In this document: positions 5,169-35,211 of the stretch, in pieces
Layout of the letters: each line of letters begins with the position of its first letter
Position numbering within the stretch: the stretch's first letter is position 1
IMG/VR virus record: IMGVR_UViG_3300029906_000160
DNA length: 64,000 nt
Strand: one strand, 5' to 3'
Source of the DNA: a virus
Taxonomy: Duplodnaviria; Heunggongvirae; Uroviricota; Caudoviricetes
Made by a program: the position numbers and the translations under genes
The notes under the pieces: generated by a model
The model's database searches: none
What the model saw: only the letters and a program-made list of their open reading frames with translations
What the model was told of the DNA's origin: nothing

Positions 5169-5630
5169 TTATTTTTGAGAGTTCGAATCGGAAAAGAATG
5201 CAATTACTTTATCAGTAATTTCGTCGGTTAAACCAGTTTCATAATCAATTCCAAAGAATGGTTGACCTGGAATCATATCTGTACGATCATCGATTATACA
5301 CCATCGATCATCTTTAGTTAAATGTTGATCTACCCAATTCTGAATTTCTTTACCACGACTTAATTCTTTTGGAGAAAAGATACTCATTTCAGTACGACCA
5401 ATAATTACACCAGTTAAGCCAGCAGTATATAGTCTTTTACAAGAACAGTTAAAATCGTATCTCCAATCTGAAGACATAACAAGATATGCCCCTGTTTCAG
5501 AGCATATCCTGTTTAGCCTTTCAATACATTTTGGATCTAGATCCTCGTCTATTGCGTTTGGATGATATGATTGATACCAAGTCTCAGAATTAAGAGTTCC
5601 ATCAATATCGAACATAATAAAATTAGCCAT
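5169..5630 (-). CDS. HAD-superfamily hydrolase/phosphatase
   Basis: N-terminal FDIDGTL (DxDGT motif). Confidence 0.55.
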   Translation of the reverse strand: MANFIMFDIDGTLNSETWYQSYHPNAIDEDLDPKCIERLNRICSETGAYLVMSSDWRYDFNCSCKRLYTAGLTGVIIGRTEMSIFSPKELSRGKEIQNWVDQHLTKDDRWCIIDDRTDMIPGQPFFGIDYETGLTDEITDKVIAFFSDSNSQK

Positions 5631-6430: not shown

Positions 6431-6437
6431 AATTTAA

Positions 6438-7118
6438 TTATTTATAATAAGCATTAAATGAACTTGCACTTATTTGTTCTATATGTGCGTTTTTTCTAAA
6501 TTCTTCAAGAGTTCTTGAATTACAGTAAGACATTGCTGAACGAAAATAACTAATAAAATTGTCACACCATCCAGCTAAAGTATATTTAATAGGAACAAGA
6601 GTTTCTATTCCTTCTGCTGTTTTTGTTGCTTCTCCACTTATTTCTGTTTGAGCTCTTTTTGTAGACATTCCATAATACTTACGTACTCTTTCGCCATTAT
6701 GATTAAATATAACTTTTCCACAAGCTTCTTCACTCATAGCAAATATCTTACCCAACATTACATAATCAGCACCAATTGCAAGAGCTTTGATTATTTGATC
6801 AAAATTAGAGAATCCTCCATCTGCAACTATTTTTGGAATAGATCTATAAGGACTGTAATAAATATATTTTTCTCCATCACAATTTTTTCGTTCTTTTCCA
6901 TTATACTCAGTTGAAACACTTACTGTATTCTTATGAAAAACTAATTTCTGAAGTAAAGAAACCATTGGATAATGAATACTCGAATTTGCCGAAGTAGTAC
7001 AATTGTGAACAACAAAATCATTAGCGATATATTGATGCTCTTTTTCAACTTCAATATCAAAAACCTCTGTAGATTGATACTTAATTTCTACAGAGGTTAT
7101 TTCTACAAAATTAATCAT
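6438..7118 (-). CDS. C-terminal split-intein half (IntC, 39 aa) fused to the C-extein of an IMPDH/GMP-reductase family enzyme
   Basis: N-term MINFVEITSVEIKYQSTEVFDIEVEKEHQYIANDFVVHN (intein blocks F/G ending HN) followed by CTTSAN (IMPDH catalytic-loop remainder); ADGGF..KALAIGADYVMLG TIM-barrel motifs. Confidence 0.8.
   Translation of the reverse strand: MINFVEITSVEIKYQSTEVFDIEVEKEHQYIANDFVVHNCTTSANSSIHYPMVSLLQKLVFHKNTVSVSTEYNGKERKNCDGEKYIYYSPYRSIPKIVADGGFSNFDQIIKALAIGADYVMLGKIFAMSEEACGKVIFNHNGERVRKYYGMSTKRAQTEISGEATKTAEGIETLVPIKYTLAGWCDNFISYFRSAMSYCNSRTLEEFRKNAHIEQISASSFNAYYK
7002..7118 (-). other. IntC split-intein segment
   Basis: blocks F and G; terminal Asn followed by +1 Cys. Confidence 0.7.
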
Positions 7119-8160
7119 ACATTAATTGTCTTATTTTATTTATTGTTTCTGGATTTTTAATATCATCTTTAGTTAAACGTAAAAATTTATATCCATTATC
7201 TTTAGCAAACTGTTCTTTTAATTGATCCCTTTCTTTTTCATCCTCTTTATGATATTTTCCTGTAGAATCATATTCGATTAAAACAGTTTTATTTATAAAG
7301 TAATCATAAATAACATATCCATCACTTAATTCAAACTTTTTTCCAAGTATAATTAAGTTTCCAATTTCAGGAAAATAAAATTTTAAAACTTGATAAAATT
7401 CAAATTCTTCATTAGAGTGAAGACCATAAGATAAATAAATATCTATTTCATCGCCATACAATCGTTTAAGATTTTTATAAACAGTTTCAGCAGATTTGGT
7501 TATTTTTTCATCATGTTTTTCGTTATAATATTTAACTAAAGAATGAATTGTATATTTTTGTGGATTTGCTTTAATCAAAAGATACATCCATGTATATGAA
7601 TTATTAGATTCTGTTTCGATAAAACCTTTACTCTCTACAACAAAATTATATCGATAAAAATCAGTTAATTCTGTGATTTCTTTTTCTGTACAAATTTCTA
7701 AAGCAATTCATACTTTTTTAAGAGTTCTTTTATCTATATTATATTGTTTTGCTACATCTATTAAAGGAGTTTCTTTATTAGAAAACATTTGAAAAGCTTC
7801 TGTAAAAGTTTTTTCATCATAACGATTCTTATACCATTGTTTTACATCAAAAGTATTCTTTAAAGATGGCTTTATTTTTTCTTTTATTTCTTGATTCGCT
7901 TGCTTAAGCATCCGCCCCATACAAGAATCTGTAGCATATTTATTAAATTCCCAACGCTTTCCTCCCGTACGTAAATGTAACGGATTTCCACAACCACAAG
8001 GGCATATAGGATGAACTCCGTTGTATCAAAATTTAACAATATAATCTTCTAATTCCATTTGATGATCTATTTTAATATGAGATCTCAATTTTGCTTTACA
8101 TGAACTTTCTTTTTCATATGTAAATTCTTTACCACAAATTTCGCATTTCAATGTTACCAT
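7111..8160 (-). CDS. free-standing homing endonuclease: N-terminal Zn-finger plus C-terminal Vsr/PD-(D/E)xK-like domain; 2 in-frame TGA read as Trp
   Basis: continuous 349-codon frame once TGA is sense (joins track ORFs 7111-7587 and 7708-7920 plus 7921-8160); CEICGKEF..CPCGCG; C-term VIYDYFINKTVLIEYDSTGKYH..DQLKEQFAKDNGYKFLRL. Confidence 0.65.
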
Positions 8161-8255
8161 ATTTTTAAAATTTTATAAGTTATACAATGTGCTATAGTTG
8201 TACCTCAACTACTAATACAAAAATAAGTATAAAATTTTAAAAATACAAATAAATG

Positions 8256-9047
8256 TTACACAATTTTATCCTCTACCAATAAATATTCAGAAGTTAAATT
8301 TTTTGCTTCAATATAAAAAGAATACTCAGATAAATTATTTTCTGTTACTTTATCTTTGTCTTTTTTATTTATAACAAGAAATTTATGATCTGGAGTACAT
8401 TTTATTTTATTATTTATCATTATTGTAGAATCGGTTGTCTTTTTAAAAGTAGAAACTACTTTTTGATTTCCAAAAATGGTTTTTACTTGTTCTCCAACAT
8501 CAATATCTTCGATATTCTTTTTCGTTCCATTTGCCATTGTAACTTTTGTTCCAGCAACAAAACAGCAACTTCCACCACCAATTCCACAACGAACATAGTC
8601 TATTCCTGCTCTAGCATATTCAAAATATGTATCTGGATTAGCTATATTACCCGCCATTATCTTAATCTCATCTCCGAACTTTTCTTTAGCTTGTTTACAG
8701 AGATTAAGAAGCCTCTTCATATGACCATTAGCTATATCTACACAAACATAGATAGTTTGAATTGGATGATAAAAATCAATCAATCTTTCAAATTCAGATA
8801 AAGATACAGCTATAAAAGTTTTATTAGATAAATCTAGTCTAGTTTCCCAATTAACTGACCTTGGAATAATAGTATTTATCTTATTATCTTGAAACATCTT
8901 CCAGTTATTTTCATCTATAACTGAGGTCATAGGCGCAGTAAATAATGGAAGCATACCATTATCCAAATAAGGATTACATTCACTTCTATGTTCTATTTCA
9001 GAAATGTCTGCTGGAACAAGACAAATGTCGTTAAATGAAAGTAACAT
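8256..9047 (-). CDS. N-extein of an IMPDH/GMP-reductase family enzyme (161 aa) fused to N-terminal split-intein half (IntN, 102 aa)
   Basis: ..YVRCGIGGGSC|CFVAGTKVTMANG (intein block A starting with Cys); block B CTPDHKF; ends with TAA. Confidence 0.8.
   Translation of the reverse strand: MLLSFNDICLVPADISEIEHRSECNPYLDNGMLPLFTAPMTSVIDENNWKMFQDNKINTIIPRSVNWETRLDLSNKTFIAVSLSEFERLIDFYHPIQTIYVCVDIANGHMKRLLNLCKQAKEKFGDEIKIMAGNIANPDTYFEYARAGIDYVRCGIGGGSCCFVAGTKVTMANGTKKNIEDIDVGEQVKTIFGNQKVVSTFKKTTDSTIMINNKIKCTPDHKFLVINKKDKDKVTENNLSEYSFYIEAKNLTSEYLLVEDKIV
8259..8564 (-). other. IntN split-intein segment
   Basis: blocks A (CFVAG) and B (TPDH) located in the last 102 codons. Confidence 0.7.
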
Positions 9048-9788
9048 TTTAAATAACTTTTCTAATTTATATTAATAAAAAATTTTGGATAATTTTATTA
9101 TGTATCTTCTTCATAATAAAACGACAAATATTGTAAAGCACGATGTATTCAATTGCATATATTATTTGTTCCAACTCTATAAGTGGATCTTGAATAAAAA
9201 TCTTTTGGATACGGAACACCTAGATAACGCACATCTTTTGTTTTTACTCCTATTTGAGAATTAACATATTCTTCCATTTCAGGAGTAAATCCATCTAATT
9301 CTATTTTAATTTTAAATGGACCTAATTCTTTATTTATTTCCACAAGTTAAAGATTTTATATTTTCTATATATACTCTAACAGAGTCATTAATTAAAAAAC
9401 AACCATATCTATCACTCCATTTAATAGAAGTAGTACGACGATCTCCAATTCTATATTTACGACCATCAAAAGTAATTATCTCTGCTATCATACACATATA
9501 AATTTTATTTTTTAACGTAAATAACCCTAACCAATTCTTTAATTGGAATTATAATAAATTCTGATAAATCATGAAATACTAATGTAATTAAAGTATCATT
9601 CTCTTCATATACCAGCCAATTCTTTTCTCCAATATAATAAAGAGTATCTTTAGTTACAATTCTATCTATTCTATAATTAGATTTATCAAAATTTGGTATA
9701 TCGTAAATCATAATAAAAAAATAAGCTCCCAGTTTATTTACTGAGAGCCTTGTGTATTAACTGTTTAATTCTTGTATAAATCTAATCA

Positions 9789-10358
9789 TTATATAACTTG
9801 CATATGAAGTCCCTTCATTATGTCAAGTGTTTTTTGATGCATTTCTGGATCATTAGATGCACAGCAATCACTATGTACTATAATTTCAGAACGAGTAAAC
9901 AAATTCTGAAAATTTAAAGCAACAGATAGAACACACATATTTGTTACAACTCCGCAGATATGGATTTCATATTCAGAATTTGGATCTAAACCAAATGGAC
10001 TTGCTAGTTTAAGACAATCATTTAAATTCCGAAAACCAAAAGCATCAACTTTAGCTATTTCACCAACCCGAACATTATCTACAAACTTTTTTAGTTCAGG
10101 AATTAGATTCCATCCTTCAGTTCCATATAAACAATGTGGAATTGGAAGATGTCGACCCTCTCTAGTTTGTGTGTATGTAGTATCACTATGTGTATCTAAA
10201 GTAAATATAACTGAAAGATTATCATCTACAAATTCATTTACTAGTTTAACAACATTAGGAACTATTGCTTTTGTATACTCATTACCAAGAACATTGTCGT
10301 TTATTAAAAAATCTTGCTGCATATCAACCACAACAAGAAATTTATTCTTTGTACTCAT
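9789..10358 (-). CDS. isochorismatase-family cysteine hydrolase (nicotinamidase PncA-like)
   Basis: VVVDMQQDF and catalytic-Cys motif CGVVTNMCV. Confidence 0.75.
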   Translation of the reverse strand: MSTKNKFLVVVDMQQDFLINDNVLGNEYTKAIVPNVVKLVNEFVDDNLSVIFTLDTHSDTTYTQTREGRHLPIPHCLYGTEGWNLIPELKKFVDNVRVGEIAKVDAFGFRNLNDCLKLASPFGLDPNSEYEIHICGVVTNMCVLSVALNFQNLFTRSEIIVHSDCCASNDPEMHQKTLDIMKGLHMQVI

Positions 10359-10722
10359 ATTTATTTAAATATAATGTTTTATTATTAAATTTAATTATTG
10401 ATCGAGTATATGGACGAGTTATTGGAATAACTGTTTCCACATATTTAGTTTCAGGAGTATCATAACATACAATTAATCTATTTTTAAATACTCCAGATAT
10501 CCATCCATTATAAAAAATATTATCTATTACAATTATTACATCATCATATAAGCTAATATTTTCTAATGTTTTATGATCTTTTATTTGTGGTTCTTCTTTA
10601 ATCCTCTTCCTCGTAAATAAACTCTTTATTTTTTCTACGAGATTCATTCTTTTTATGTTTTTTACTTGGATTTGATTTGTGTTTTTTAATTTTTTGAACT
10701 GTCGGCTGATAATCATCTTCAT
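10342..10722 (-). CDS. hypothetical protein
   Basis: ORF track. Confidence 0.45.
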   Translation of the reverse strand: MKMIISRQFKKLKNTNQIQVKNIKRMNLVEKIKSLFTRKRIKEEPQIKDHKTLENISLYDDVIIVIDNIFYNGWISGVFKNRLIVCYDTPETKYVETVIPITRPYTRSIIKFNNKTLYLNKYEYKE

Positions 10723-10864
10723 TTTCTTCCAGCCAATCCATTCTAAATTTTCCCATTTTGGAAATTAAAGAAAAATTAAATAGTTAAACTTAAGTAATAA
10801 AAATGTTGCTTCAACGTGTTGATTTAAAAGATCAATGTTTTAATAAGATTATAAGCAACATTAG

Positions 10865-10937
10865 TGGAACTTTAGGGATTCGAACCCTAACTCTTAGAAT
10901 GCAAATCTAAAGTGCTAACCATTATCACTAAAGCCCC
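10865..10937 (-). tRNA. tRNA-Ala (UGC)
   Basis: cloverleaf by hand; G3:U70; anticodon loop UUUGCAU; T-arm GGGUUCGAAUCCC. Confidence 0.7.
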
Positions 10938-11035
10938 ATAACATTAAATATTTAAATTAAAAATTAAAGAATTGATACTAAATGCCGCTACATACGAATT
11001 ATCAAATTCCATTTATAGTATTATAAGTATCAAGA

Positions 11036-11109
11036 GAGCAGCATAGGTGAATCGAACACCCATATTCAGATTGGAAGTCTGACATAATAACCGTTATACT
11101 AATGCTGCT
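11036..11109 (-). tRNA. tRNA-Gly (UCC)
   Basis: acceptor AGCAGCA/UGCUGCU; anticodon loop CUUCCAA; T-arm GGUGUUCGAUUCACC. Confidence 0.7.
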
Positions 11110-11185
11110 AATAATAGAAAGGCTTAGGACTTCTTTTGGTAAGTTTTACTCAGGATCCTGGAGATTTTCCCTTTCCTTTCTATTG

Positions 11186-11258
11186 AGCCTTCTGTCGGAA
11201 TCGAACCAACAACCTGAACTTTACAAAAGTCCTGCTCTGCCTATTGAGCTAAGAAGGC
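11186..11258 (-). tRNA. tRNA-Thr (UGU)
   Basis: acceptor GCCUUCU/AGAAGGC; D-arm UAGCUCAAUAGGCAGAGCA; anticodon loop UUUGUAA. Confidence 0.7.
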
Positions 11259-11265
11259 GTATCTA

Positions 11266-11831
11266 TTATTTTGTATATTTCTTTCGTTCTTTTCTTCCAT
11301 TACCTTTATTAGCACCTTTATACGTAGCAGTTAAAGAATGACAATTTGGACATAATAGTATTAAATTTTCTTCAGAATTATTTAAATAATTTCCATCTAT
11401 GTGTTCGACTTCTAATGGAATTTTATTAGTATATGGATTTGTTTCTCCTCACCCACATCTAGCACATTTATTATTATATTTTTTAAACAAATAACACTTT
11501 AAATAAGAACTAACTTGATACTCGCCTTTTAATCCTGTTTCTTTTCCCTCTTTTCAACGTTTTTCTCATTCCTTTTGTTCTCAATTTTGTTGACATTGGT
11601 GAGAACAAAATTTTAAGTGAGCTTTATGTAAATTCTGTCCACAATTAAGGCAAACGCCATAATCTTTTTCTTTTTGAGTTGTTAATAAAATATCTAATTT
11701 TATTGCTCATCTTTTTATAGTTCGTCAATTAACATTATATAGTCTTCCTATTTCTGCATAAGAAAGTTGTTGAACGTTAATTAAATTGTTTAATGTTTCT
11801 TTGTCAATCATTTTAAAAATCTACTGTAATA
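11266..11831 (-). CDS. HNH homing endonuclease with N-terminal HTH; 5 in-frame TGA read as Trp
   Basis: CARCGW..LEVEHIDGN..NLILLCPNCH; HTH LSYAEIGRLYNVNWRTIKRW; unreadable in the standard code. Confidence 0.75.
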
Positions 11832-12152
11832 ACCATTATACTAAAAAGGCAATAAATGTTACTAATACGTAGCCAACGGAGCATTTTATGGTTGCACAAC
11901 CTGGAGCAGAATACATAATTCCACACAGTACATGTTAAATAAGTATTATAAGTAACATAATGGCTTGCGGGAGTTGAAGGTAACGCTCCTCCGTACTCAC
12001 GTTAACAGCGTGAAGTTCTACTTTTGAACTAAACTCCCAACAATCTACTTTATCCTACATACGAAAAGTAGTAAAACGTATCTCCATACGATGAGATTCA
12101 TGAGCGACAGGGCTTCAAGATGCTACGATTCACTCGTCAGTGACTAATTATT

Positions 12153-12227
12153 GAGCGCCAGTGGGACTCGAACCCACGTAGAATGGCTTATGAGACCATG
12201 CTGGGACCATCTCCAGTCTACAGCGCT
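12153..12227 (-). tRNA. tRNA-Met/Ile2 (CAU)
   Basis: acceptor AGCGCUG/UGGCGCU; anticodon loop CUCAUAA; T-arm GUGGGUUCGAGUCCCAC. Confidence 0.6.
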
Positions 12228-12261
12228 ATATTGTATCGCATAAATGTTTATTTATAATATA

Positions 12262-12720
12262 TCAAAGAGTACCTTTACTCTTTATATTATATTTTTTCAT
12301 TAAATCTTTATAAGAAAGCCCAAGATGTTTATCGCTTCGAATTTGTTTTATTAATTCATTAGAATAAATTCTATTTGCTAACGCAGATTTCTTTATTCTT
12401 ACTTTTTCTGGAATATCAAACATATTATCAGAATTAGTTCCAATTTCAATATTTTCCTCTTTATTGTTTAAAGAATTTCCATCTAAATGTCTAATAACCA
12501 TATCTTTTTCATAAATCTTTTCTTTAAACTTTTTATATGCTTGAAATCTATGATGATATACCTTAATATTCTTTCCATTTAACTTAAAAGAAAAATATAA
12601 ATAAGGTTGTTTTCCTCTAGTTCCAACAATGTTGCCTTTTGGACTTGTAACAATTCCATCTTTAGAAATTACATAACCTTTATTTCAAGCTAATTCTTCA
12701 TAATGATTATAATTTACCAT
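12262..12720 (-). CDS. HNH (HNH_3-type) endonuclease; 1 internal TGA read as Trp; annotated stop is itself TGA
   Basis: YHHRF..VIRHLDGNSLNNKEENIEIGTNSDN; track ORF 12262-12501 extends upstream through a TGA to an ATG at 12720. Confidence 0.65.
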
Positions 12721-12741
12721 TTTTGTTATATTTTTATATTG

Positions 12742-12900
12742 TGACTCCTGTGGGACTTGAACCCGACGACCCCATCATTAATTTCAGACAAGTCTGGATA
12801 GTTGGGCACGATCCAACGACCTCCAGTTCCCAAAACTGGCGTTCTACCAACTGAACTACATCCAGAAAGTGATGTGCTCTACCAACTGAGCTAAGGAGTC
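12742..12900 (-). tRNA. tRNA-Lys (UUU)-like gene interrupted in its anticodon loop by about 85 nt that contain a complete tRNA-Pro
   Basis: 5' half GACUCCU-UA-GCUCAGUUGGUAGAGC-A-CAUCA-CUUU; 3' half UAA-UGAUG-..UUCAAGU..-AGGAGUC-A; perfect 7-bp acceptor and 5-bp anticodon stems between the halves. Confidence 0.5.
12793..12865 (-). tRNA. tRNA-Pro (UGG), nested inside the tRNA-Lys-like gene
   Basis: C1:G72 acceptor CUGGAUG/UAUCCAG; D-arm GUUCAGUUGGUAGAAC; anticodon arm CCAGU-UUUGGGA-ACUGG; T-stem GUUGG/CCAAC; 73 nt. Confidence 0.65.
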
Positions 12901-13009
12901 GCTCTTAAGATACTTATTTTAAACCTAACTTATCAATTAATGTAAATATAAACTTGTAAGTATCTTATTTTATGTTAATCTTCAGTATTATAAATTTCTC
13001 TAGTTACTT

Positions 13010-13081
13010 TATTGATGTTGGAATCGAACCAACGAACTCTGCGTGACTCGCAAATGTTAAAACCACTTAACTAATCAATTG
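13010..13081 (-). tRNA. tRNA-like, anticodon region GUC (Asp?) with non-canonical position 33
   Basis: D-arm UAGUUAAGUGGUUUUAAC; T-arm GUUGGUUCGAUUCCAAC; acceptor mismatch at 1:72. Confidence 0.45.
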
Positions 13082-13143
13082 ATTTTATAAGTAACTTAAA
13101 CTAAACCTATAAGTTTGAGTAAATTCAGGGACTTATAGGTACA

Positions 13144-13485
13144 CTAAATTTTTTCAATTATAATTTTAATATTTCCCCAACTTTTTGGAATCACATCTTT
13201 AAATTGAGATTCCCAAAGTAAAGATTGATTTGTAAAATAATAATTACCATAAATAGAAGAAATATAATGTTTTATTTGACTTATTTGCTTTTCAAATTCT
13301 TTATATTTTTTATTCTTCTTACTTATCTGGCATTGAGCTAATTCTAGATTATATATTTCTTCTAAACGAGGTTTGATATCATTTATATAATCAGAATATT
13401 CGATTAAATATTTATATTGAGATACTGTATATTTAAGTTTAGTATCATGAACATAAGTAATTTTATATTTACCTAAAGTTTTCAT
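13144..13485 (-). CDS. hypothetical protein
   Basis: ORF track. Confidence 0.45.
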   Translation of the reverse strand: MKTLGKYKITYVHDTKLKYTVSQYKYLIEYSDYINDIKPRLEEIYNLELAQCQISKKNKKYKEFEKQISQIKHYISSIYGNYYFTNQSLLWESQFKDVIPKSWGNIKIIIEKI

Positions 13486-13501
13486 ATTTAAATAAATTTA
13501 G

Positions 13502-13575
13502 TACTCGGTGGGAGATTCGAACTCACCGTGAAGGGAATGAAAATCCCTCATACTAACCAACTATATGAACCGAGC
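13502..13575 (-). tRNA. tRNA-Glu (UUC)
   Basis: anticodon arm AGGGA-UUUUCAU-UCCCU; T-loop UUCGAAU; acceptor GCUCGGU/ACCGAGU. Confidence 0.55.
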
Positions 13576-13576
13576 A

Positions 13577-13612
13577 AAAAAGAGGAGAGCTAGAACCCTC
13601 CTCGAACTAACA
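13577..13612 (-). terminator. putative rho-independent terminator (minus strand)
   Basis: minus-strand GAGGAG-(10 nt loop)-CUCCUC followed by UUUUUU. Confidence 0.4.
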
Positions 13613-13918
13613 AAGAAATGTTAGCGATTCGAAATGCTACTTATTTCAACGAGCTAATTTAAAAGATTAGAGTTTTAAAATGTTATTATAAGTAGCATAA
13701 TATAATTTTTTTTAAATTTAACCTTTTAATGTAACCTCTTTATTAATTGGATCTCATACAACAAATCAAAGATTTGTTTTTAGTTAACCATCCACTAACA
13801 TAATTAACTGCTCCTGCATGAGTTGAATCTATTGATAATTTTATTCTGTCTTCTATACTGCTCGTCCAGTCACAGTTATGAGAAATGGATTACTAACCGT
13901 AGCTCCATGAAAGTCATA

Positions 13919-14365
13919 TCAAGTACCAGCAGTCATCTGAATAGCACTAGCTGGTCTATCGTCCTGAAGTCTACCTGACATGCTATATGCGAATGAGGTA
14001 TTTATTGGTACTGTTCCTGTCACTCGTGTTATCTTAATCCCACTGATTGCTTTAGTCTCATGCCTATAGTCAAGATCAGGAGATCCATTAACCATATAAT
14101 TAACTGGATTAGTAGTAGATATCTGATATTGTACTTGCATTTGTCCATCATATCCTATTAATCCTTGGAATAGAATATAGCAGTAAATCCTTGCTGCTAT
14201 ATCAGCCTCCTGTACTAACTGATTATTACTATAAGTACCCTTTATAGTAAATTCACTAGCATTTTTAATATCTTGATACGTAGGACATTGAGAGTAAGTA
14301 TTAGGATAAGTTACCTTATATCCGAAATTATCATATAAATACTGATAAGTTGCAATTTTACCCAT
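13919..14365 (-). CDS. hypothetical protein
   Basis: ORF track. Confidence 0.45.
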   Translation of the reverse strand: MGKIATYQYLYDNFGYKVTYPNTYSQCPTYQDIKNASEFTIKGTYSNNQLVQEADIAARIYCYILFQGLIGYDGQMQVQYQISTTNPVNYMVNGSPDLDYRHETKAISGIKITRVTGTVPINTSFAYSMSGRLQDDRPASAIQMTAGT

Positions 14366-14510
14366 GATACACCTCCTCCCTTTCCTTAATTTGAGATTGA
14401 TTAAACTTTGTAAACATAATGATAATTAATTTAATTGTCAAACAATAATTGCTATTACTAGTTTACCGATTTCCTCATTATGTCAAGCAATTACGATAAA
14501 ACTATAATAG

Positions 14511-14585
14511 ATTGAACTCACAGTAGGATTCGAACCTACATCTTCCTATAATAATATAGGTGTTCTGTCATTAAACTACATGAGT
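14511..14585 (-). tRNA. tRNA-like element (T-arm UAGGUUCGAAUCCUA); identity unresolved (6-nt anticodon loop by hand)
   Basis: acceptor ACUCAUG/UGUGAGU with G:U pairs; canonical T-arm. Confidence 0.4.
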
Positions 14586-14690
14586 TAGTAAATTTCTAGT
14601 TACTAAATTATAGCAGAGTATTTAGTTATAGGATAATTCAGGAATAGTAGTATATAAGTTACTTACTTCTTGATTAGTTCTATTATCTAA

Positions 14691-15350
14691 TTATTTAATT
14701 AATACTTCATCGATTAAACCATAAGATTTTGCTTCTTCTGCATTAAACCAACAATCTCTATCTGCATTCTCTACAATTTGAGAATATATAATTCCTGTGT
14801 TCTTAGAAAGTATTTCATATAGAGTTTGTTTGTATTGTTTAATTTCTTCGTAAGCAATTTTTATATCTGATTCTTGAGTTCCTGGAGCAATTCCACCCAT
14901 AGGTTGATGAATCATTATCTTACTATGTGGTAATGCGAATCGTTTACCTTTAGTTCCACTAGATAATAAAACTGCTCCCATAGATGCTGCTAATCCAATT
15001 GCATAAGTTTCTACATTTGGAGATATATACTGCATCATATCATAAATAGCAAGTCCATCAACTATCGAACCTCCAGGACTATTTATAAATAATTTAATCT
15101 CAGTTTTATCATCCATTGTATTTAAATACAACAACTGAGAAGTAATAATATTAGCAACATCTGCGTCAATGTCTGTTCCAAGAAAGATAATTCTATCAGC
15201 CATCAATCTTGAAAATATATCCATAGTTGCTACATTATTTCGTCTTTCTTCTACAATAGTTGGACTTATAATATCATTAGTAAACTTTTGATAATCCCAC
15301 ATTTTATGAGATCCTACTCGCGAACTCAGAAACTTTTCGTAATCTTTCAT
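14691..15350 (-). CDS. clpP: ATP-dependent Clp protease proteolytic subunit ClpP
   Basis: catalytic-Ser region GLAASMGAVLL, His region MIHQPMGG; 219 aa; no TGA. Confidence 0.9.
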   Translation of the reverse strand: MKDYEKFLSSRVGSHKMWDYQKFTNDIISPTIVEERRNNVATMDIFSRLMADRIIFLGTDIDADVANIITSQLLYLNTMDDKTEIKLFINSPGGSIVDGLAIYDMMQYISPNVETYAIGLAASMGAVLLSSGTKGKRFALPHSKIMIHQPMGGIAPGTQESDIKIAYEEIKQYKQTLYEILSKNTGIIYSQIVENADRDCWFNAEEAKSYGLIDEVLIK

Positions 15351-15693
15351 TATATAAATATATTATTTTATCTTTTTTAACATCATAATATTCTGCATCA
15401 ACAGGATTGTAATGTCCCCAACATATAGTTACATCTGGAAACAAAGAATTAAATTCATTAAGTTCTTTACCTATAAATTCTTTAAATCCTGTATTATTTG
15501 CATGAATTTCATCAACATGAATTACAAACAAATTAATATCTAACTTATCGTAATAACATCTAAGTTTTATATCACGATATTTATTTGTAATTCTATTACA
15601 CAAATTCTTTATAGAAAATTCTAAAATTCTTCTAGCTTGAATTTCAGCCCAATCACGTATTTTATTTATTATTTTAAATATAAATTTTAGCAT
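15304..15693 (-). CDS. hypothetical protein
   Basis: ORF track; promoter-like motif 35 nt upstream. Confidence 0.45.
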   Translation of the reverse strand: MLKFIFKIINKIRDWAEIQARRILEFSIKNLCNRITNKYRDIKLRCYYDKLDINLFVIHVDEIHANNTGFKEFIGKELNEFNSLFPDVTICWGHYNPVDAEYYDVKKDKIIYLYNERLRKVSEFASRIS

Positions 15694-15744
15694 ATTTATA
15701 ATGATACTATTTGACTGAAGACTTATTAAATATTGTAAGTATCA

Positions 15745-16954
15745 GTCGTATATTTTATTTTATAAGCTTAATGTTATAATATTCACAGAGAGAATTTAAA
15801 ACATTTCTTTTAATGTTAAATATTTCAAATAGTTTCTGTTTTGTCTTATATTTACTTCAAGCTTCTAATAAGTCTTCTTTAGAAACTATAGGATTTCCAT
15901 TTTCATCTAATATAGACCTCAATTTTAATCATTTAGCGTTACATTCGCGAGAACAACAAACACTTTTTCTATCTTGAGGTTTATATTCTTTCCCACAAAC
16001 GATACAAATTCGTTTTGGAACAGGTTGTTTATTATTTAAACCTAACTCTGTTTTAGTAGATGGAAGATTATATTGTCTACATCATCTTCTAACAGTATTA
16101 TCTGTAACTCCAAATTGTTTAGCGATATTACGAAAACTTCTAGTTTGAATTGCTTCTTTTAATCATTCTTTTGTCGGATATTCTAAATTTGCGTTTTCAT
16201 TATTCTTTAATCTAGATTTTTGTAAAGTATCTAATCTAGATTTTGTACTACATTCTTTAGAACAAAAATCAGATGTACCAGAAAACTCTTTACCACAATA
16301 CTTACATTTCTTAATTTTGTGTTTTACTATAAGCTGATTTTCTTTCTTTATATTTTTACCACAATAATTATCTGTTATTGCATGACAATTTGGACACAAT
16401 AGTTGTAAATTTTCAATTCTATTATCAGTATTAATTCCATTAATATGATGGACTTCTAATGGAATTTGTTGTCCTTCTCATTCTGTTTTATTACATTTTT
16501 CACATTTTCATTCTTTTAATCCAAATTCCACTAATCTAATTTTTAATTTAGATTTTTGATAATCTGAATTTTCTTTAAATATATCTTCTTTAGTATATTT
16601 CTTTCTAACTTTTTCTTTTGTATTATCTATACAAAAATGAGAAGTATCAATATTATATTTTTCTATAATTTTGTTAATACGAGAATAATTTGTATTTGTC
16701 GCTCTAATTCCTAAATTTTTACAAACATCGTTTATATTCTTACATTTTGGAATTAAATCAACAATAATTTGTTCATATTCTTGTTTAGCTTTTTCTCGTT
16801 CGATTATCTTTTCTCTATCTTTTTGTCATTTAGTACCAAGATAATAAGCTACTAATGATTTTGTAGAATTACATTTTGATGCAATTTGAGTATAACTTAA
16901 TCCTTGATTATGTAATTCTTTAAATAATTTATATTTTTCTTCAGCTTCAGTCAT
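15745..16954 (-). CDS. HNH homing endonuclease with multiple HTH domains (about 402 aa); 7 in-frame TGA read as Trp
   Basis: LEVHHINGINTDNRIENLQLLCPNCH; C-terminal HTH ..NTVRRWCRQYNL with W=TGA; track shows only a 78-aa fragment (16163-16399). Confidence 0.75.
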
Positions 16955-17013
16955 TTTATAAAGAAAAATTAAAAATTAATAAAATCTTTTATATTTTAAT
17001 CTAAACAATATTC

Positions 17014-17088
17014 GTAGATCTGGCTGGGCACGATCCAGCAACCTTCTGAGTCAAAGTCAGATGTTCTAAACCAATTGAACTACAGATC
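17014..17088 (-). tRNA. tRNA-Gln (UUG)
   Basis: acceptor AGAUCUG/CAGAUCU; anticodon arm UCUGA-CUUUGAC-UCAGA; T-arm GCUGG-AUCGUGC-CCAGC. Confidence 0.65.
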
Positions 17089-17240
17089 TATTACCATATT
17101 TTTAGTTTGATTTGAATTCCAAACTAAAAATATTATTAAAAATGAAACTTAATTAATTTTGTAAAGTACAACCAAAGAACTAAGAAATTATTAATTATAT
17201 TATATTGTAAGTTTCATTTTATATATTTCAACGTTACTAT

Positions 17241-17313
17241 TACATGATATTGGAATCGAACCAATTACATTTTGTGCCTTAAGCAAATGCTCTACCTAAT
17301 GAGCTAATCATAT
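17241..17313 (-). tRNA. tRNA-like (anticodon loop region UUAAGGC; Leu?)
   Basis: acceptor AUAUGAU/AUCAUGU; canonical D-arm UAGCUCAUUAGGUAGAGCA; T-arm UUGGUUCGAUUCCAA. Confidence 0.5.
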
Positions 17314-17345
17314 TAGTTTTATAAGTAACGTATATTATCAATTAA

Positions 17346-17465
17346 AATGCTACTATTGTACGTGCTCTAACCATCTGAGCTATACGCAAAATGCGCAACC
17401 GGACTTGAACCGATGACCACGAGATTACGAATCTAAAACTTTGATTTTGTAAGTAGCAATTATTT
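17346..17465 (-). other. tRNA-derived modules in non-canonical order (T-arm AUCGGUUCAAGUCCGGU upstream of D-arm UAGCUCAGAUGGUUAGAGCA)
   Basis: hand alignment; no complete cloverleaf. Confidence 0.35.
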
Positions 17466-17800
17466 TATTCTGCCTTAATTATCTTTTTATCTTCATCAAG
17501 TTTATAGGGAGCTTTTTCCTCTTTATTAAATGTAGAAGCTGTTTCCATAAACTGATCAAGAAAATAACTTTTTAAATATCCGAAATGTGGATGAGCTTTA
17601 TATTTATTACAAAGCCAAGAGTAAACATTATCGTAATTTTGATTTACAGATCTTTTAAGTTTTCTATCTATTATGCGATAATCCTTATTCAGATCTTTAT
17701 CAACAGGAGCAACATTATAATATTCTGTAAAGTCTTTAGCCTCCTGCTTATGAGAATCTCGCATTGATTCTCTCATCGGCATATTATCAAAATCCTGCAT
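17465..17800 (-). CDS. hypothetical protein
   Basis: ORF track. Confidence 0.45.
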   Translation of the reverse strand: MQDFDNMPMRESMRDSHKQEAKDFTEYYNVAPVDKDLNKDYRIIDRKLKRSVNQNYDNVYSWLCNKYKAHPHFGYLKSYFLDQFMETASTFNKEEKAPYKLDEDKKIIKAE

Positions 17801-17884
17801 AATTAAATAAAATTAAAATGTTACTTTATAATAAAACTTGCCCGCAACAAGTCACGTAAACCATTCCGTCTTTCCAGAACATAT

Positions 17885-18235
17885 TCTAGAAGTTGGATTC
17901 GAACCAACAATTATTTAATAGTTTTATAAGTAACATAATTAATAAAAGTCTATTGACACTTTATACGTTGCTCTACTAATGAGCTTTATTGATAATTCAA
18001 TAAAAGGATTTGCACCTTTAACCTACGGGTTACAAGCCAGATTTTGTTTTATAAGTGTCAAATTATAAGTCTAATGATACATTTATACTTATGCTCTACC
18101 ACTGAGCTAATTAATCAATTTTTTGGCGATTAATACTGGATTTGAACCAGTTACCTTAAGTTCCCCACAATAGTTTTATATGTATCATATTTGGGAGTTA
18201 AAAGATATTCGAAATCTTTCCTTTTCAGTCACAGT
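17885..18235 (-). other. array of tRNA modules (3 canonical D-arms, 4 T-arms) interleaved with promoter-like motifs; order and acceptor complementarity suggest permuted or fragmented tRNA genes
   Basis: minus strand: T-arm(ACUGG-UUCAAAU-CCAGU)+AUUAAUC..GAUUAAU+D-arm(UAGCUCAGUGGUAGAGC); repeated pattern. Confidence 0.35.
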
Positions 18236-18291
18236 GAAATATGCTAGCCAATTACACCATTAACTCCATCTGCAAATATATAACAAAAATT

Positions 18292-23737: not shown

Positions 23738-23829
23738 TTATGTTCAATGTAAATCGTTAGTTTACACCCGTTATTAACTGCTTATACTTCATTTTCGTAT
23801 AAGACCTGACTATATCTTCACCTTCGACA

Positions 23830-24702
23830 TTACTCGTTAAGGGCGGAGCATTCCGAAGCACTTGCTTCTACCACCATTTCAGGAATAGTCGATGAACCTT
23901 CAACCTCATTAGAGGAAGCTTGGCTGCTGATTACCATCTCAGGCGTCCCAGCAATTAACTCCGTTTCACTTAATGATTTCTCATTAAGAGCACAAATTAT
24001 TTCTTCAAATTTTTTCTTTTTTCTTGGAAGGAAAACTGTTGCGTCTTTATATATAAAATCATAAAACTTTTTAATATTTTGTCTACCAGAATATTCCATT
24101 GTACAAATATCGGAATTAATTCTACGTGAGTTTAACTTAGTTTGTTTAAATCCTAGATTATCAATTAAATATTGTTGATAAGCTGAAATAAAAGAAACGT
24201 ATCCGGTAATATTAAATTTAACATTATGAATAATACGTTCTCTACGTCCCTCTTTTCGTGTGGGATCGTTTACTCACATTTTCTTTCTTTTTCCATTTCA
24301 AATACAACCGTCTCCATCAAAATAACCTCGCATAAAGTGAGAAATTAAATCTTCTGGGACTTGTCATTCTGTTGGTCAAGACAAATTTTTAGTTTTACGT
24401 TTAACACATCCTTGTTTTTCTAATGATTCTGCAATATGTTTTCCGTATACATAAAATCGAATTTGATCCTCATGATTTTCATTTGTATCTTTTCTAATAA
24501 GTAATGGATAATCCGATTTCATTTCTTCTTTTAATTTATCAACAACACATCTATCTTCAATTTGAAGTGATATTGATATCTCTCCAGTAGTTGGATGTTC
24601 ATGATTACATCCATCTGCATACAATAATCCAAGAAAATATGCCTTTTCTGGCGTATTTATCTCATCAAAATAAGTTTCATCATAATTATGTTTTCTTTTC
24701 AT
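23830..24702 (-). CDS. LAGLIDADG homing endonuclease between the two phosphatase halves; several in-frame TGA read as Trp
   Basis: KAYFLGLLYADGC and HFMRGYFDGDGCIW; joins track ORFs 24376-24702 and 23830-24099. Confidence 0.7.
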
Positions 24703-33158: not shown

Positions 33159-33296
33159 ATTATATAATTTAATGATTAGACAAAATAAAAAACTTCAGCG
33201 TGCATCACTGCAGACTGGAGGACTTCCACTTATATGTGGATAAGTTAGTTAATCTTAGGTATAACTTCATTCTAACTTAAAAATTAAAGAGTATTG

Positions 33297-33611
33297 TAGC
33301 TCCGATGCGATTTGAACGCACACTTCCACTGCTGGAAAAGGGATTTTAAGCAAAAATACTTGATTCTTGGACTATCTCATTACCATGCGTATAAACGTTT
33401 AGGTATCGGACGCTCTAGTTGGTTATTAAGAAGACTAAACTTCTCCAATAGTCTCTACACGTTCAGTAATTGTAACTACTGCTTCGCTCGCCCTCTGTGT
33501 TTTCTCACTTCAGCCGAATTCATCCGATTATGCGATATAGATTTCTCTATAAAGGGGACTTCTGTCTAATATTGACAGTTCCCTCGTGTCTACCTATTCC
33601 ACCACGGAGCC
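33297..33611 (-). tRNA. tRNA-Leu (UAA) interrupted by about 229 nt in the anticodon loop (probable group I intron)
   Basis: 5' exon GGCUCCG-UGGUGGAAUAGGUAGACACG-AGGGA (cf. E. coli tRNA-Leu ..UGGUGGAAUCGGUAGACACAAGGGA..); 3' exon CUUAAAA-UCCCU-long variable arm-GUGCG-UUCAAAU-CGCAU-CGGAGCU-A. Confidence 0.55.
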
Positions 33612-33631
33612 TTATTTAATATTAATTTATA

Positions 33632-33772
33632 AGTAATACATCTGAATAAGCTGTACTCTTCTTATAAACTAAAGCAATTTCTTCATTTCCTGATATATTA
33701 TTTACAACTGTAGTGTTATCTGGAAGATCCTTTATAAATTCTTTTAGTTCTTTAACTGTCATAATCTTCAAA
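33632..33772 (-). CDS. small protein, TVxEL family (MTVKELKEFIKDLPDNTT..)
   Basis: 46 aa, not in ORF track. Confidence 0.45.
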
Positions 33773-34412: not shown

Positions 34413-34430
34413 AATTGAAAAGTTTTAATT

Positions 34431-34466
34431 AGTGGAGATATCGGGAATCGAACCCGAGTCTTTTAT
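34431..34466 (-). other. tRNA-like 3' fragment (T-arm UCGGG-UUCGAUU-CCCGA plus acceptor) bordering a 750-nt ORF-free region
   Basis: no matching 5' half found by hand; 9-nt direct repeat TGGAGATAT also at 34683. Confidence 0.35.
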
Positions 34467-35211
34467 TAATCCTATATAGTTTTTATTTATATGCTTAGTT
34501 AATTTTTCTAAACTAACAAAATAACTAAATTGATTAAAGAGTGTTTAGTAAAACTCTGAATTTAAAGAATTATAATGAAAAGAGCTATGCGAAACTATAA
34601 TTAAAAGGCATAGTGGGAGTAAAGAACTCTTTGAGTGTCTTCACTACTTTTGAGAAAAGATTTTTAATTCCGTTTATTTTTGGAGATATTTAAAGTAATC
34701 ACTTACTGCATAAAACATATACCAAATCAATAAAATCAAATCCAAGCATCCCCAATGCAAAGATAAGAAAAAGTTTTAAATATACAAATAAAAATGGATA
34801 CTAAGTATAAATAATTCGCCTGCCTTTCTAATTTCAAAATTGGACGCGCTATATAGCTATTTTATAAATATACTTAGTATCCAAATAAAAATGGAAGATC
34901 TGACTGTATGTTTAAGTAACCCAAAATGCTAGTTACATAACGCATAATCCCTACAGCTAGGCTCTATTCTCTTAAATAGACTTTAGCACCAGATCTTCCA
35001 AAAAATTGGTTATAAGGTTACCAACCCAGCCTAGGCAACTTTAATCTAGAATTCAGTTGCTTCGTTACTTCAGACGCCAAATAATATTGTCTGAGAGTCA
35101 CCTCTATCTTTAATATGTATATAAGGAAGCTGAGGAAGCTATTATACACATCCGGATCTTTATATACTTCTCCTAGTATAATCCGGCTATACTAAGAGGA
35201 CTTATAAAAGA

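What the first reader, a model, noticed from the sequence alone, without database searches (positions are those of the whole stretch)
33297..33611. tRNA-Leu(UAA) gene interrupted by about 229 nt in the anticodon loop - candidate group I intron in a phage tRNA
The 5' part matches bacterial tRNA-Leu (..UGGUGGAAUAGGUAGACACGAGGGA). The 3' part supplies CUUAAAA-UCCCU, a long variable arm, T-arm GUGCG-UUCAAAU-CGCAU and acceptor CGGAGCU complementary to the 5' GGCUCCG. The intervening 229 nt are ORF-free and GC-richer. The promoter-like motif sits just upstream. The tRNA-Leu(UAA) anticodon loop is the classic site of the ancient cyanobacterial/plastid group I intron, and finding that arrangement in a phage is notable. 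A tmRNA was considered and rejected because there is no tag-like ORF and the body is tRNA-Leu-like.
Basis: seen in the sequence. Interest (0 to 1): 0.7.

Follow-up and report, generated by a model that had tools for sequence, protein, structure and literature searches.

The report
Self-splicing intron inside phage tRNA-Leu gene
A phage leucine-tRNA gene is split by a 229-base group I (self-splicing) intron that sits at an unusual place and, unlike essentially all known introns of this kind, would have to cut after an A paired with U instead of the usual U paired with G.

Summary
On the minus strand, window 33611..33297 holds a tRNA-Leu(UAA) gene split by exactly 229 nt (33351-33579). Removing them gives a tRNA that ARAGORN calls, with a junction identical to the intron-less tRNA-Leu of Bacteroides phage DAC19.

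The insert has a group I ribozyme core. This rests on:
- a sub-threshold RF00028 match (29.6 bits, E 7e-6), while relatives pass the threshold;
- a P3/P7 pseudoknot plus P2, P4-P6, P8 and P9, with strong covariation (99% of cells paired, against 31-45% in slid controls);
- a guide sequence that pairs with both exons, and a terminal G.

Twelve other split tRNA-Leu genes in uncultured phage and metagenome contigs carry an intron at the same site. Exons and intron both show compensatory changes, so the gene is under selection and must be spliced.

It is not the cyanobacterial/plastid intron. The site is 31/32, not 34/35. The architecture is IA-like, with a hairpin between P7 and P3'. The nearest relatives are introns of crAss-like gut phages.

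The surprise is the 5' splice site. In 13 of 13 copies the last exon base is A31 paired with U, not the conserved U·G wobble.

No sigma-70-like promoter lies upstream. Splicing itself is untested.

The parts
33580..33611 (-). 5' exon of tRNA-Leu(UAA): acceptor 5' strand, D arm, and the 5' strand of the anticodon stem (AGGGA, 33580-33584), which also forms P1 with the intron's guide sequence
   Evidence: The acceptor and D stems covary across homologues.
33351..33579 (-). Group I intron, 229 nt, with no ORF on its own strand
   Evidence: RF00028 gives 29.6 bits, E 7e-6, full-length model match at 33348-33589. CM R1 gives 168.7 bits. Covariation is shown.
33554..33561 (-). Internal guide sequence, 5'-AAG|UCCCC-3'. 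UCCC pairs with exon GGGA to form P1, with A31 paired to U at the splice site. AAG pairs with CUU of the 3' exon to form P10.
   Evidence: In 13 homologues the guide tracks the anticodon stem (GGGA/UCCC, CGGA/UCCG, CAGA/UCUG).
33562..33578 (-). P1 extension hairpin (CUGUC-AAUAUUA-GACAG)
   Evidence: Read directly from the sequence. A hairpin is present at this place in the homologues, but its sequence is not conserved.
33536..33551 (-). P2 hairpin (UAUAG-AGAAAU-CUAUA)
   Evidence: 5 of 5 pairs show compensatory changes and 100% of cells are paired.
33523..33527 (-). P3 5' strand (UCGGA). It pairs with 33406-33410 (UCCGA). This helix crosses P7, forming the pseudoknot.
   Evidence: 3 of 5 and 5 of 5 pairs compensatory. 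RNAalifold finds it independently.
33487..33518 (-). P4-P5 domain (UUCGGCU ... GGGCGAG around the P5 hairpin GUG-AGAAAA-CAC). The internal loop GAA/NGAG stands in place of the usual A-rich J4/5-J5/4.
33464..33481 (-). P6 hairpin (CAGUAGU-UACA-AUUACUG)
   Evidence: 6 of 7 pairs compensatory and 7 of 7 in the wider family.
33449..33455 (-). P7 5' strand (G-A-GACUA, with a bulged A). It pairs with 33369-33374 (UAGUCC). This is the expected guanosine-binding helix.
   Evidence: The outer pair switches from G-C to C-G in L390 and L234. The sequence is shared with relatives that pass the RF00028 threshold.
33419..33448 (-). Extra hairpin between P7 and P3' (P7.1/P7.2-like: UUGG-AGAAG...CUUCU-UAAUAA-CCAA)
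   Evidence: 6 of 9 pairs compensatory on A3, 8 of 9 on A4. It is absent in the short form L115.
33406..33410 (-). P3 3' strand (UCCGA)
33381..33405 (-). P8 hairpin (UACC...GGUA)
33369..33374 (-). P7 3' strand (UAGUCC)
33351..33368 (-). P9 hairpin (AAGAAU-CAAGU-AUUUUU) followed by the terminal G (omega-G, 33351)
   Evidence: A terminal G precedes CUUAAAA (CUCAAAA in L522) in 13 of 13 copies. I read a hairpin just before it by eye in 11 homologues (sequences).
33297..33350 (-). 3' exon: anticodon loop CUUAAAA (33344-33350), 3' strand of the anticodon stem, long variable arm, T arm, acceptor 3' strand and discriminator A. CCA is not encoded.
33196..33210 (-). Terminator-like hairpin with a T run, downstream of the tRNA

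Best explanation
This is a functional phage tRNA-Leu(UAA) gene interrupted between nucleotides 31 and 32 by a small group I intron that encodes no endonuclease.

Inferred mechanism. The gene is transcribed on the minus strand, probably by read-through from the upstream genes, and a terminator-like hairpin follows it. The intron then folds into a group I core with P3-P9 and a P3/P7 pseudoknot. Its guide sequence 5'-AAG|UCCCC pairs with the 5' strand of the anticodon stem (GGGA) to form P1. A free guanosine attacks the bond after A31. The first three loop bases of the 3' exon (CUU) then pair with AAG to form P10, and the terminal G (33351) enters the G site. The 3' OH of A31 attacks the bond between the terminal G and C32. 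The exons are joined, and the released AGGGA re-pairs with UCCCU to form the anticodon stem of a normal tRNA-Leu(UAA).

What is shown: the anatomy, the homology, the covariation and the exact insertion site.

What is inferred: the chemistry, and in particular that cleavage happens after an A paired with U instead of after the canonical U of a U·G wobble.

The intron belongs to a family that is common in gut and other large phages. It most likely persists as a tolerated selfish element. The tRNA is kept because UUA makes up 28% of the leucine codons in this 31% G+C genome.
For: 1. One tRNA. In-silico splicing at 31/32 gives ARAGORN tRNA-Leu(taa) in the window and in all homologues that were spliced in silico (10 in all).

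2. Exact site. The intron-less tRNA-Leu of Bacteroides phage DAC19 reads ...GGUAGACACGAGGGA|CUUAAAAUCCCU..., identical across the junction. The insertion point is therefore unambiguous.

3. Match to the Rfam group I model. RF00028 aligns over its full length to 33348-33589 (29.6 bits, E 7e-6). Relatives L019 (80.8 bits) and L001 (58.7 bits) pass the gathering score of 50.

4. Core structure.
- On 9 split tRNA-Leu genes, 99.4% of cells are paired and 20 of 39 pairs show compensatory changes. No shuffle out of 500 reaches this, and slid controls give 31-45%.
- On 37 model hits, 96.5% of cells are paired and 34 of 39 pairs are compensatory.
- RNAalifold finds P3, P4, P5, P6, the P7.1/7.2 hairpin and P8 on its own.

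5. Guide sequence. P1 and P10 are possible in 13 of 13 copies. P1 changes together with the anticodon stem (GGGA/UCCC, CGGA/UCCG, CAGA/UCUG). The terminal G is invariant.

6. Selection on the exons. In the acceptor stem 6 of 7 pairs are compensatory, and in the T stem 5 of 5. The anticodon stem is 100% paired.

7. Need for the tRNA. TTA is 28% of Leu codons and CTT is 45%. The phage's two Leu tRNAs (UAA here, AAG at 17241-17313) match these two codons.
Against: No experiment shows splicing.

This copy scores below the RF00028 gathering threshold, and the standard runs missed it.

The 5' splice site lacks the U·G wobble that reviews describe as a strict requirement (PMC6155759). In the Anabaena intron, swapping U·G to G·U at that position abolishes the reaction (PMC12355055). 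A canonical mechanism therefore predicts poor first-step activity.

The J4/5-J5/4 region, which contacts the wobble pair in known introns, is unusual in most copies. It looks more canonical in L115, L525 and L526, so there is no clean compensating pattern.

In L525 and L526 the first intron base is U. It could form a U·G pair one position downstream of the junction that is needed.
Confidence: 0.77

Rival explanations
1. The intron is a dead insertion. It has a group I-like core but cannot carry out the first step without a U·G pair, so this tRNA-Leu is a pseudogene.
For: The 5' splice-site pair is A-U, with the purine on the exon strand. This copy is below the RF00028 threshold. The literature treats the U·G pair as required (PMC6155759, PMC12355055).
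Against: Thirteen diverged copies, 72-76% identical to the window copy where measured, keep a perfect cloverleaf with compensatory changes in every stem. They also keep a guide sequence that changes together with the anticodon stem, an invariant terminal G, and an intact core. A pseudogene would not be maintained in this way across so many phage lineages.
Confidence: 0.07
2. Splicing follows the canonical rule but at a shifted site. The first intron base, facing the guide G, is the true last exon base, so the mature tRNA has an extra base and an 8-nt anticodon loop.
For: The guide G that normally makes the wobble pair lies opposite intron position +1. In L525 and L526 that base is U, which allows a canonical U·G pair.
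Against: Position +1 is A in 8 copies, G in 3 and U in 2, so it is not conserved as a tRNA position would be. With the extra base, ARAGORN no longer calls a normal tRNA. The intron-less DAC19 allele has no such base. The shifted site would also lose the contiguous P1-P10 pairing of the guide with GGGA|CUU.
Confidence: 0.05
3. The ribozyme core is real, but cutting or folding at the 5' site depends on a protein factor from the phage or host, or on hydrolysis rather than guanosine attack.
For: The splice-site pair is non-canonical and most copies have an unusual J4/5-J5/4. Many group I introns need protein helpers in vivo (general knowledge; see also the review PMC3984707).
Against: No maturase or endonuclease gene lies in or next to the intron. 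The guide, P10, terminal G and P7 are conserved as expected for the ordinary two-step reaction.
Confidence: 0.1
4. This is not an intron. It is two unrelated tRNA-like fragments, a tmRNA, or some other structured RNA.
For: ARAGORN and Rfam at default thresholds call nothing here.
Against: The halves make a complete tRNA-Leu, and the acceptor strands on either side of the insert covary with each other. The group I core is supported by RF00028 and by covariation. There is no tag-like reading frame. The real tmRNA-like gene is elsewhere, at 34430-34753.
Confidence: 0.01

Closest known systems
[quoted passage not shown]
   Same: The host gene has the same identity and anticodon. The intron is small (about 230-250 nt) and has no ORF. 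It lies in the anticodon region and uses part of the anticodon arm as the P1 substrate. The exons re-pair as the anticodon stem after splicing.
   Different: The position is 31/32 instead of 34/35 (PMC13011429 for the classic site; for this one). An extra hairpin lies between P7 and P3' that IC3 introns lack. The last exon base is A paired with U, not U·G. The host is a phage. No specific sequence similarity was found, and blastn hits go to phage introns instead.
Group I introns of phages in protein-coding genes (T4 td, nrdB and sunY; SPO1; Twort; crAss-like and 'Jug' gut phages)
   Same: The host is a phage and the layout is IA-like, with a hairpin after P7. The core is directly related: 74-88% identity to crAss-like phages cr55_1, cr118_1 and cr6_1, and 90-137 bits with my model. 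The same window holds two more candidate introns.
   Different: The host gene here is a tRNA. A 2014 review states that all phage introns known to that date were in protein-coding genes, despite the many phage tRNA genes (PMC3984707). This intron has no homing endonuclease gene, and its 5' splice-site pair is non-canonical.
Other bacterial tRNA group I introns (Azoarcus tRNA-Ile, Agrobacterium tRNA-Arg, cyanobacterial tRNA-fMet, Patescibacteria tRNA-Asn and tRNA-Asp at 35/36)
   Same: These are small self-splicing introns in the anticodon arm. RF00028 and standard tRNA finders often miss them (PMC13011429). The Patescibacteria ones are also of subgroup IA.
   Different: All the named sites (33/34, 34/35, 35/36, 36/37) follow a U. 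This one follows A31, at the end of the stem. That paper reports an HNH-carrying intron in tRNA-Leu(UAA) of Bacteroidota. I could not find its position, because the relevant table was not among the held supplements.
Group I intron in the T-loop of tmRNA genes
   Same: The nearest sequence relatives of this intron, in crAss-like phages, sit in the T-loop of a permuted tmRNA-like gene. They are the same family by my model.
   Different: Those copies carry an antisense HNH ORF in P9 and have a canonical U·G at the 5' site (P1 is UUCGAU/GUCGAG). The host RNA and the insertion site are different.

Membership tests
Group I intron (Rfam RF00028) | Score at or above the curated gathering threshold (50 bits) | tested here: not met
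   This copy scores 29.6 bits, E 7e-6, with a full-length alignment. It gives no hit when 1.9 kb or the whole window is searched. Relatives L019 (80.8 bits) and L001 (58.7 bits) pass.
Group I intron (fold) | A conserved core: P3-P8 and P4-P6 domains, with P3 and P7 forming a pseudoknot | tested here: met
   99.4% of cells paired, 20 of 39 pairs compensatory, slid controls 31-45%; 96.5% paired, 34 of 39 compensatory; independent RNAalifold prediction.
Group I intron (fold) | An internal guide sequence that pairs with the end of the 5' exon (P1) and the start of the 3' exon (P10) | tested here: met
   P1 is possible in 13 of 13 copies and changes together with the exon. P10 pairs G-C32 and A-U33 are possible in 13 of 13.
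Group I intron (fold) | A U·G wobble pair at the 5' splice site, with U as the last exon base | tested here: not met
   The last exon base is A31, paired with U of the guide, in 13 of 13 copies. The site is fixed by the intron-less DAC19 allele. Family relatives L001 (tmRNA T-loop) and L019 (tRNA-CAU) do have U at -1.
Group I intron (fold) | A terminal guanosine (omega-G) as the last intron base | tested here: met
   G precedes CUUAAAA or CUCAAAA in 13 of 13 copies.
Group I intron (fold) | P7 with the guanosine-binding site | tested here: inconclusive
   The P7 helix G-A(bulge)-GACUA / UAGUCC is present, nearly invariant, and shared with relatives that pass the threshold. Binding of guanosine cannot be tested from sequence.
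Group I intron (function) | Guanosine-dependent two-step self-splicing | not testable with these tools
   This needs in vitro transcription and a splicing assay, or RNA reads across the ligated junction.
Cyanobacterial/plastid tRNA-Leu(UAA) intron (IC3) | Insertion between U34 and A35 of the anticodon | tested here: not met
   The insertion lies between A31 and C32. The classic site is 34/35 (PMC13011429).
Cyanobacterial/plastid tRNA-Leu(UAA) intron (IC3) | IC3 architecture, with no P7.1/P7.2 and P7 followed directly by P3' | tested here: not met
   A covarying 30-nt hairpin lies between P7 and P3'.
tRNA-Leu (type II tRNA) | A cloverleaf with a long variable arm, a 7-nt anticodon loop with U33, and anticodon UAA after splicing | tested here: met
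   ARAGORN calls it on the spliced sequences. Stem covariation is shown. The junction is identical to DAC19 tRNA-Leu.

The most novel reading that the evidence does not exclude
A widespread lineage of natural group I ribozymes, living in tRNA-Leu genes of large phages, has dispensed with the near-universal U·G wobble at the 5' splice site. It cuts after an adenosine that is Watson-Crick paired to U at the end of the anticodon stem. The splice site would then be defined by the end of a guide helix that reads straight across both exons. If so, the rule 'any U can be a group I splice site, and only a U' is not absolute. It would also make these the first self-splicing introns described in phage tRNA genes.
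Probability: 0.5. Interest if true: 0.8.

Novelty: new variant of a known kind. Interest (0 to 1): 0.66.

Why it matters
Three points would matter if this is confirmed.

1. Phage tRNA genes were thought to be free of group I introns (review PMC3984707). Standard annotation misses this gene entirely, so phage tRNA sets are probably under-counted wherever such introns occur. I found 13 cases, several of them in contigs of 120-410 kb.

2. The splice site contradicts the best-known sequence rule of group I catalysis, the U·G wobble that the J4/5 region recognises. A natural family that works without that wobble would be a ready-made system for studying how the 5' site is chosen. It would also widen the choice of target sites for engineered trans-splicing and RNA-circularising ribozymes.

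3. The same intron family moves between tRNA-Leu, tRNA(CAU), tmRNA-like genes and probably protein genes of gut phages. That is a clear example of intron spread among structured-RNA genes in viruses.

Tried and rejected
**Standard detectors.** ARAGORN and Rfam at gathering thresholds call nothing at the locus. Rfam with E up to 10 on 1.9 kb also finds nothing. RF00028 appears only when 351 nt are searched.

**Wasted scans.**
- The genome-contig scan used a G+C-rich 15-mer (GAGGGCGAGCSAAGC). I therefore could not test whether Bacteroidota or other bacteria carry this intron at 31/32.
- The metagenome scan with a 16-mer was also mostly chance hits.

**Supplementary data.** Table S5 of PMC13011429, which should give the position of the Bacteroidota tRNA-Leu intron, is not among the held supplements.

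**Readings considered and dropped.**
- A tmRNA at this locus: no tag frame, and the body is tRNA-Leu.
- Alternative 5' splice sites after a U inside the P1 extension: not conserved among homologues.
- A shifted P1 register that would create a G·U pair: excluded by the CAGA/UCUG and CGGA/UCCG variants.
- Divergent J4/5-J5/4 as a compensation for the A-U site: dropped because L115, L525 and L526 have more canonical loops at the same site.

**Searches that came back empty.**
- No homing endonuclease in the neighbouring ORFs.
- No match in plasmids.
- No GenBank phage record with the whole arrangement.
- The tRNA 5' halves belonging to the L086 and L052 introns.
- A clear splice junction for the related intron in the 735-kb phage.

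Full report
**1. What is there**

The feature lies on the minus strand. Read as RNA from 33611 down to 33297, it has three parts.

- A 32-nt 5' exon: GGCUCCG UG GUG GAAUAGGUAGA CAC G AGGGA.
- 229 nt of intervening sequence (33579..33351): ACUGUC...UAUUUUUG.
- A 54-nt 3' exon: CUUAAAA UCCCU, a long variable arm, T arm GUGCG-UUCAAAU-CGCAU, acceptor CGGAGCU and discriminator A.

ARAGORN finds 13 other tRNAs and a tmRNA in the window but not this gene. Rfam at gathering thresholds does not find it either. When the 229 nt are removed in silico, ARAGORN calls a normal tRNA-Leu with anticodon UAA.

The intron has 38% G+C, against 29% in its flanks and 31% for the window.

**2. The insertion point is fixed by an empty allele**

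The cultured Bacteroides phage DAC19 has an intron-less tRNA-Leu(UAA). It reads ...GGUGGAAUAGGUAGACACGAGGGA CUUAAAA UCCCU..., identical to the two window exons across the junction.

The intron starts with A and ends with G, while the exon bases at the junction are A31 and C32. The insertion point therefore cannot be slid in either direction. It lies between nucleotide 31, the last base of the 5' strand of the anticodon stem, and nucleotide 32, the first base of the loop.

The classic cyanobacterial/plastid tRNA-Leu intron lies between U34 and A35 (PMC13011429). This is a different site.

**3. The insert is a group I ribozyme**

- *Rfam.* When only 351 nt are searched, RF00028 aligns over its full length to 33348-33589 at 29.6 bits (E 7e-6). 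That is below the gathering score of 50.
- *Related sequences.* blastn places the central 130 nt with unannotated stretches of crAss-like phages at 74-88% identity. Pattern scans of IMG/VR and metagenomes then recovered homologous sequences.
- *Hand-drawn core on nine split tRNA-Leu genes.* I drew P3, P4, P5, P6, P7, a hairpin between P7 and P3', and P8, with P3 and P7 crossing as a pseudoknot. 99.4% of cells are paired and 20 of 39 pairs carry compensatory changes. No shuffle out of 500 reaches this, and sliding the partners by 1-3 columns gives 31-45%.
- *Independent prediction.* RNAalifold, given no structure, returns P3, P4, P5, P6, the extra hairpin and P8.
- *Covariance model R1.* The model built from this alignment finds 37 hits in the fetched loci. 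On these, 96.5% of cells are paired and 34 of 39 pairs are compensatory. That alignment is fitted to the model, so it leans towards the structure. The MAFFT-based result does not have this bias.
- *Relatives above threshold.* Two relatives pass the Rfam threshold: L019 at 80.8 bits and L001 at 58.7 bits.

The hairpin between P7 and P3' is the hallmark of subgroup IA as I recall it from Michel and Westhof's classification. I could not run subgroup models, so 'IA-like' is an inference.

**4. Guide sequence and splice sites**

Downstream of a short P1-extension hairpin lies 5'-AAG|UCCCC-3' (33561..33554). UCCC pairs with exon GGGA to form P1. AAG pairs with CUU, the first three bases of the 3' exon, to form P10. 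The guide therefore reads straight across the ligated junction GGGA|CUU. A small P9 hairpin and then a G precede the 3' exon.

**5. Thirteen independent copies**

The same arrangement occurs in 12 other contigs. In all of them a tRNA-Leu gene is split at 31/32 by a related intron of 189-257 nt.

- From IMG/VR: L132, L123, L116, L115, L183, L196, L234, L390, L525 and L526. Several come from contigs of 120-410 kb.
- From metagenomes: L488 and L522.

The three compared directly are 72-76% identical to the window copy over most of the gene.

The guide follows the anticodon stem:

| Exon strand | Guide |
|---|---|
| GGGA | UCCC |
| CGGA | UCCG |
| CAGA | UCUG |

In L522 the anticodon is CAA, and there the P10 guide GAG pairs perfectly with CUC.

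The terminal G is invariant.

The tRNA stems themselves covary. In the acceptor stem 6 of 7 pairs are compensatory, and in the T stem 5 of 5. The anticodon stem is 100% paired.

Both the tRNA and the intron are therefore under purifying selection. That only makes sense if the intron is removed precisely.

The phage also has use for the product. TTA is 28% of leucine codons in the long ORFs and CTT is 45%. The phage's two Leu tRNAs (UAA here, AAG at 17241-17313) match exactly these two codons.

**6. The anomaly**

In every one of the 13 copies the last exon base is A31, Watson-Crick paired with the U of the guide.

Group I introns are described as needing a G:U pair at this position, with the U on the substrate strand (PMC6155759). 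In the Anabaena tRNA-Leu intron, reversing U·G to G·U abolishes the reaction (PMC12355055). All the named bacterial tRNA insertion sites (33/34, 34/35, 35/36, 36/37) follow a U (PMC13011429).

Here the guide G that would normally form the wobble pair instead pairs with C32 in P10. Before the first step it faces intron base +1, which is A in 8 copies, G in 3 and U in 2.

A shifted P1 register is excluded by the CAGA/UCUG and CGGA/UCCG variants.

Relatives in the same family do have the canonical pair:
- the crAss-like phage intron, with P1 UUCGAU/GUCGAG;
- the tRNA(CAU) intron of L019, which is inserted after CAU.

Most tRNA-Leu copies also have an unusual P4-P5 junction, UUCGGCUGAAG...GGAGGGCGAGC, where relatives have UUCAGGGAAA...CAAUCCUGAGC. 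That junction is the region which contacts the wobble pair in known structures. However, L115, L525 and L526 have more ordinary junctions at the same site. I therefore do not claim a compensating change.

In L525 and L526 the U at +1 could make a U·G pair one base too far downstream. Splicing there would leave an 8-nt loop, which ARAGORN no longer accepts.

How the 5' site is chosen remains the open question.

**7. Surroundings**

- *Neighbours.* The tRNA starts 10 nt after the stop codon of a small ORF (33622-33771). A terminator-like hairpin follows it at 33196-33210.
- *Promoter.* No sigma-70-like site lies upstream on the minus strand. The upstream 22-mer is unique in the window.
- *Endonucleases.* No homing endonuclease is found in the neighbouring ORFs.
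- *The phage.* The window encodes a GroEL-type chaperonin about 45% identical to those of Bacteroides phages DAC and SJC, AAA ATPases, and a tail-fibre repeat protein. It has no close match in GenBank phages. This looks like an uncultured large phage, probably of Bacteroidota. The host assignment is an inference from the intron relatives, from the DAC19 tRNA match, and from a TAnnTTTG motif upstream of the tmRNA-like gene.

**8. Comparison with what is known, and novelty**

[quoted passage not shown] It is not the cyanobacterial/plastid tRNA-Leu intron.

A 2014 review states that all phage group I introns known to that date were in protein-coding genes, despite the many phage tRNA genes (PMC3984707). 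Later papers on crAss-like and 'Jug' gut phages report many introns in protein genes and do not mention tRNAs (PMC7886860, PMC12880540). My searches of the held literature found no report of a phage tRNA intron.

A 2026 survey of bacterial genomes found group I introns at nearly every anticodon-loop position, and an HNH-carrying one in Bacteroidota tRNA-Leu(UAA) (PMC13011429). I could not learn its position, so a bacterial counterpart at 31/32 may already be catalogued.

I rate this a new variant of a known kind. The kind is familiar. The host gene class (a phage tRNA), the insertion site and, above all, the splice-site pair are not.

**9. Limits**

- Nothing here shows splicing.
- The literature search covers only open-access papers.
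- The single genome scan was wasted on a poor pattern, so the distribution in bacteria is unknown.

Noticed in passing
window 34430-34753 (-), with motif at 34758-34765 (-): A tmRNA-like gene lies 0.8 kb upstream of the tRNA-Leu. ARAGORN calls it with an unusually long tag, GIKNLFSKVVKTLKEFFTPTMPFNYSFA*. RF00023 gives 44 bits, E 9e-16, just under the gathering score of 47. The motif TATCTTTG, which matches the Bacteroidetes -7 promoter consensus TAnnTTTG as I recall it, lies 4 nt upstream of its 5' end.
   Followed up: partly
window 23807-23965 (-) and 61870-62019 (+): Model R1 finds two more candidate group I intron cores in the window (44.6 bits, E 1e-10, and 24.9 bits, E 4e-5). In each, an ORF runs into the 5' part of the core, as intron-encoded endonuclease genes often do. 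Their host genes were not identified.
   Followed up: partly
L001 (crAss-like phage cr55_1, NC_055869) 2418-3122; also L002, L003, L044, L066, L094: The nearest relatives of the intron are unannotated. In cr55_1, a 705-nt intron with an antisense HNH ORF interrupts the T-loop of a circularly permuted tmRNA-like gene. After in-silico removal of the intron, ARAGORN calls a permuted tmRNA with tag GNTMFVTDYSCVA*. Its 5' splice site is a canonical U·G.
   Followed up: partly
L019 6968-7290: In another viral contig, a tRNA with anticodon CAU (Met or Ile2) is split after the anticodon (36/37) by a member of the same intron family. RF00028 gives 80.8 bits. The last exon base is U.
   Followed up: partly
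L115 854-1128 compared with L116 11417-11088: L115 shares an almost identical P1-P2 region with L116, but has a much shorter core with a different P4-P5 and no hairpin after P7. This suggests modular exchange between introns at the same site.
   Followed up: no
L525 and L526 (split tRNA-Leu genes): In these two copies the first intron base is U. It can form a U·G pair with the guide G one position downstream of the junction that a normal tRNA requires. Its meaning is unexplained.
   Followed up: partly
L528 (735-kb phage LR756501) about 330-600: A related intron core sits in a T-arm-like context (CAGGGUUUGAU...G|AAUCCCUG). I could not reconcile its splice junction with a 7-nt T-loop and a U at -1.
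   Followed up: no
window 4971-5063 (-) and 14514-14585 (-): One tRNA has anticodon UCA, which ARAGORN labels SeC; it may be a UGA suppressor. Another has an anticodon loop of non-standard length, labelled '???' with anticodon (ta). Both lie in or near a 13-gene tRNA array at 4971-18266. Reading TGA through raises the total ORF length on both strands, so the test is not decisive.
   Followed up: no
L001 1533-1733: A RAGATH-22 RNA (RF03098, 127.5 bits, above its threshold) lies about 0.7 kb upstream of the tmRNA-like gene of crAss-like phage cr55_1.
   Followed up: no
window 1071-2696 (-): A phage-encoded GroEL-type chaperonin (Cpn60_TCP1, E 2e-62). It is about 45% identical to those of Bacteroides phages DAC and SJC.
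   Followed up: no
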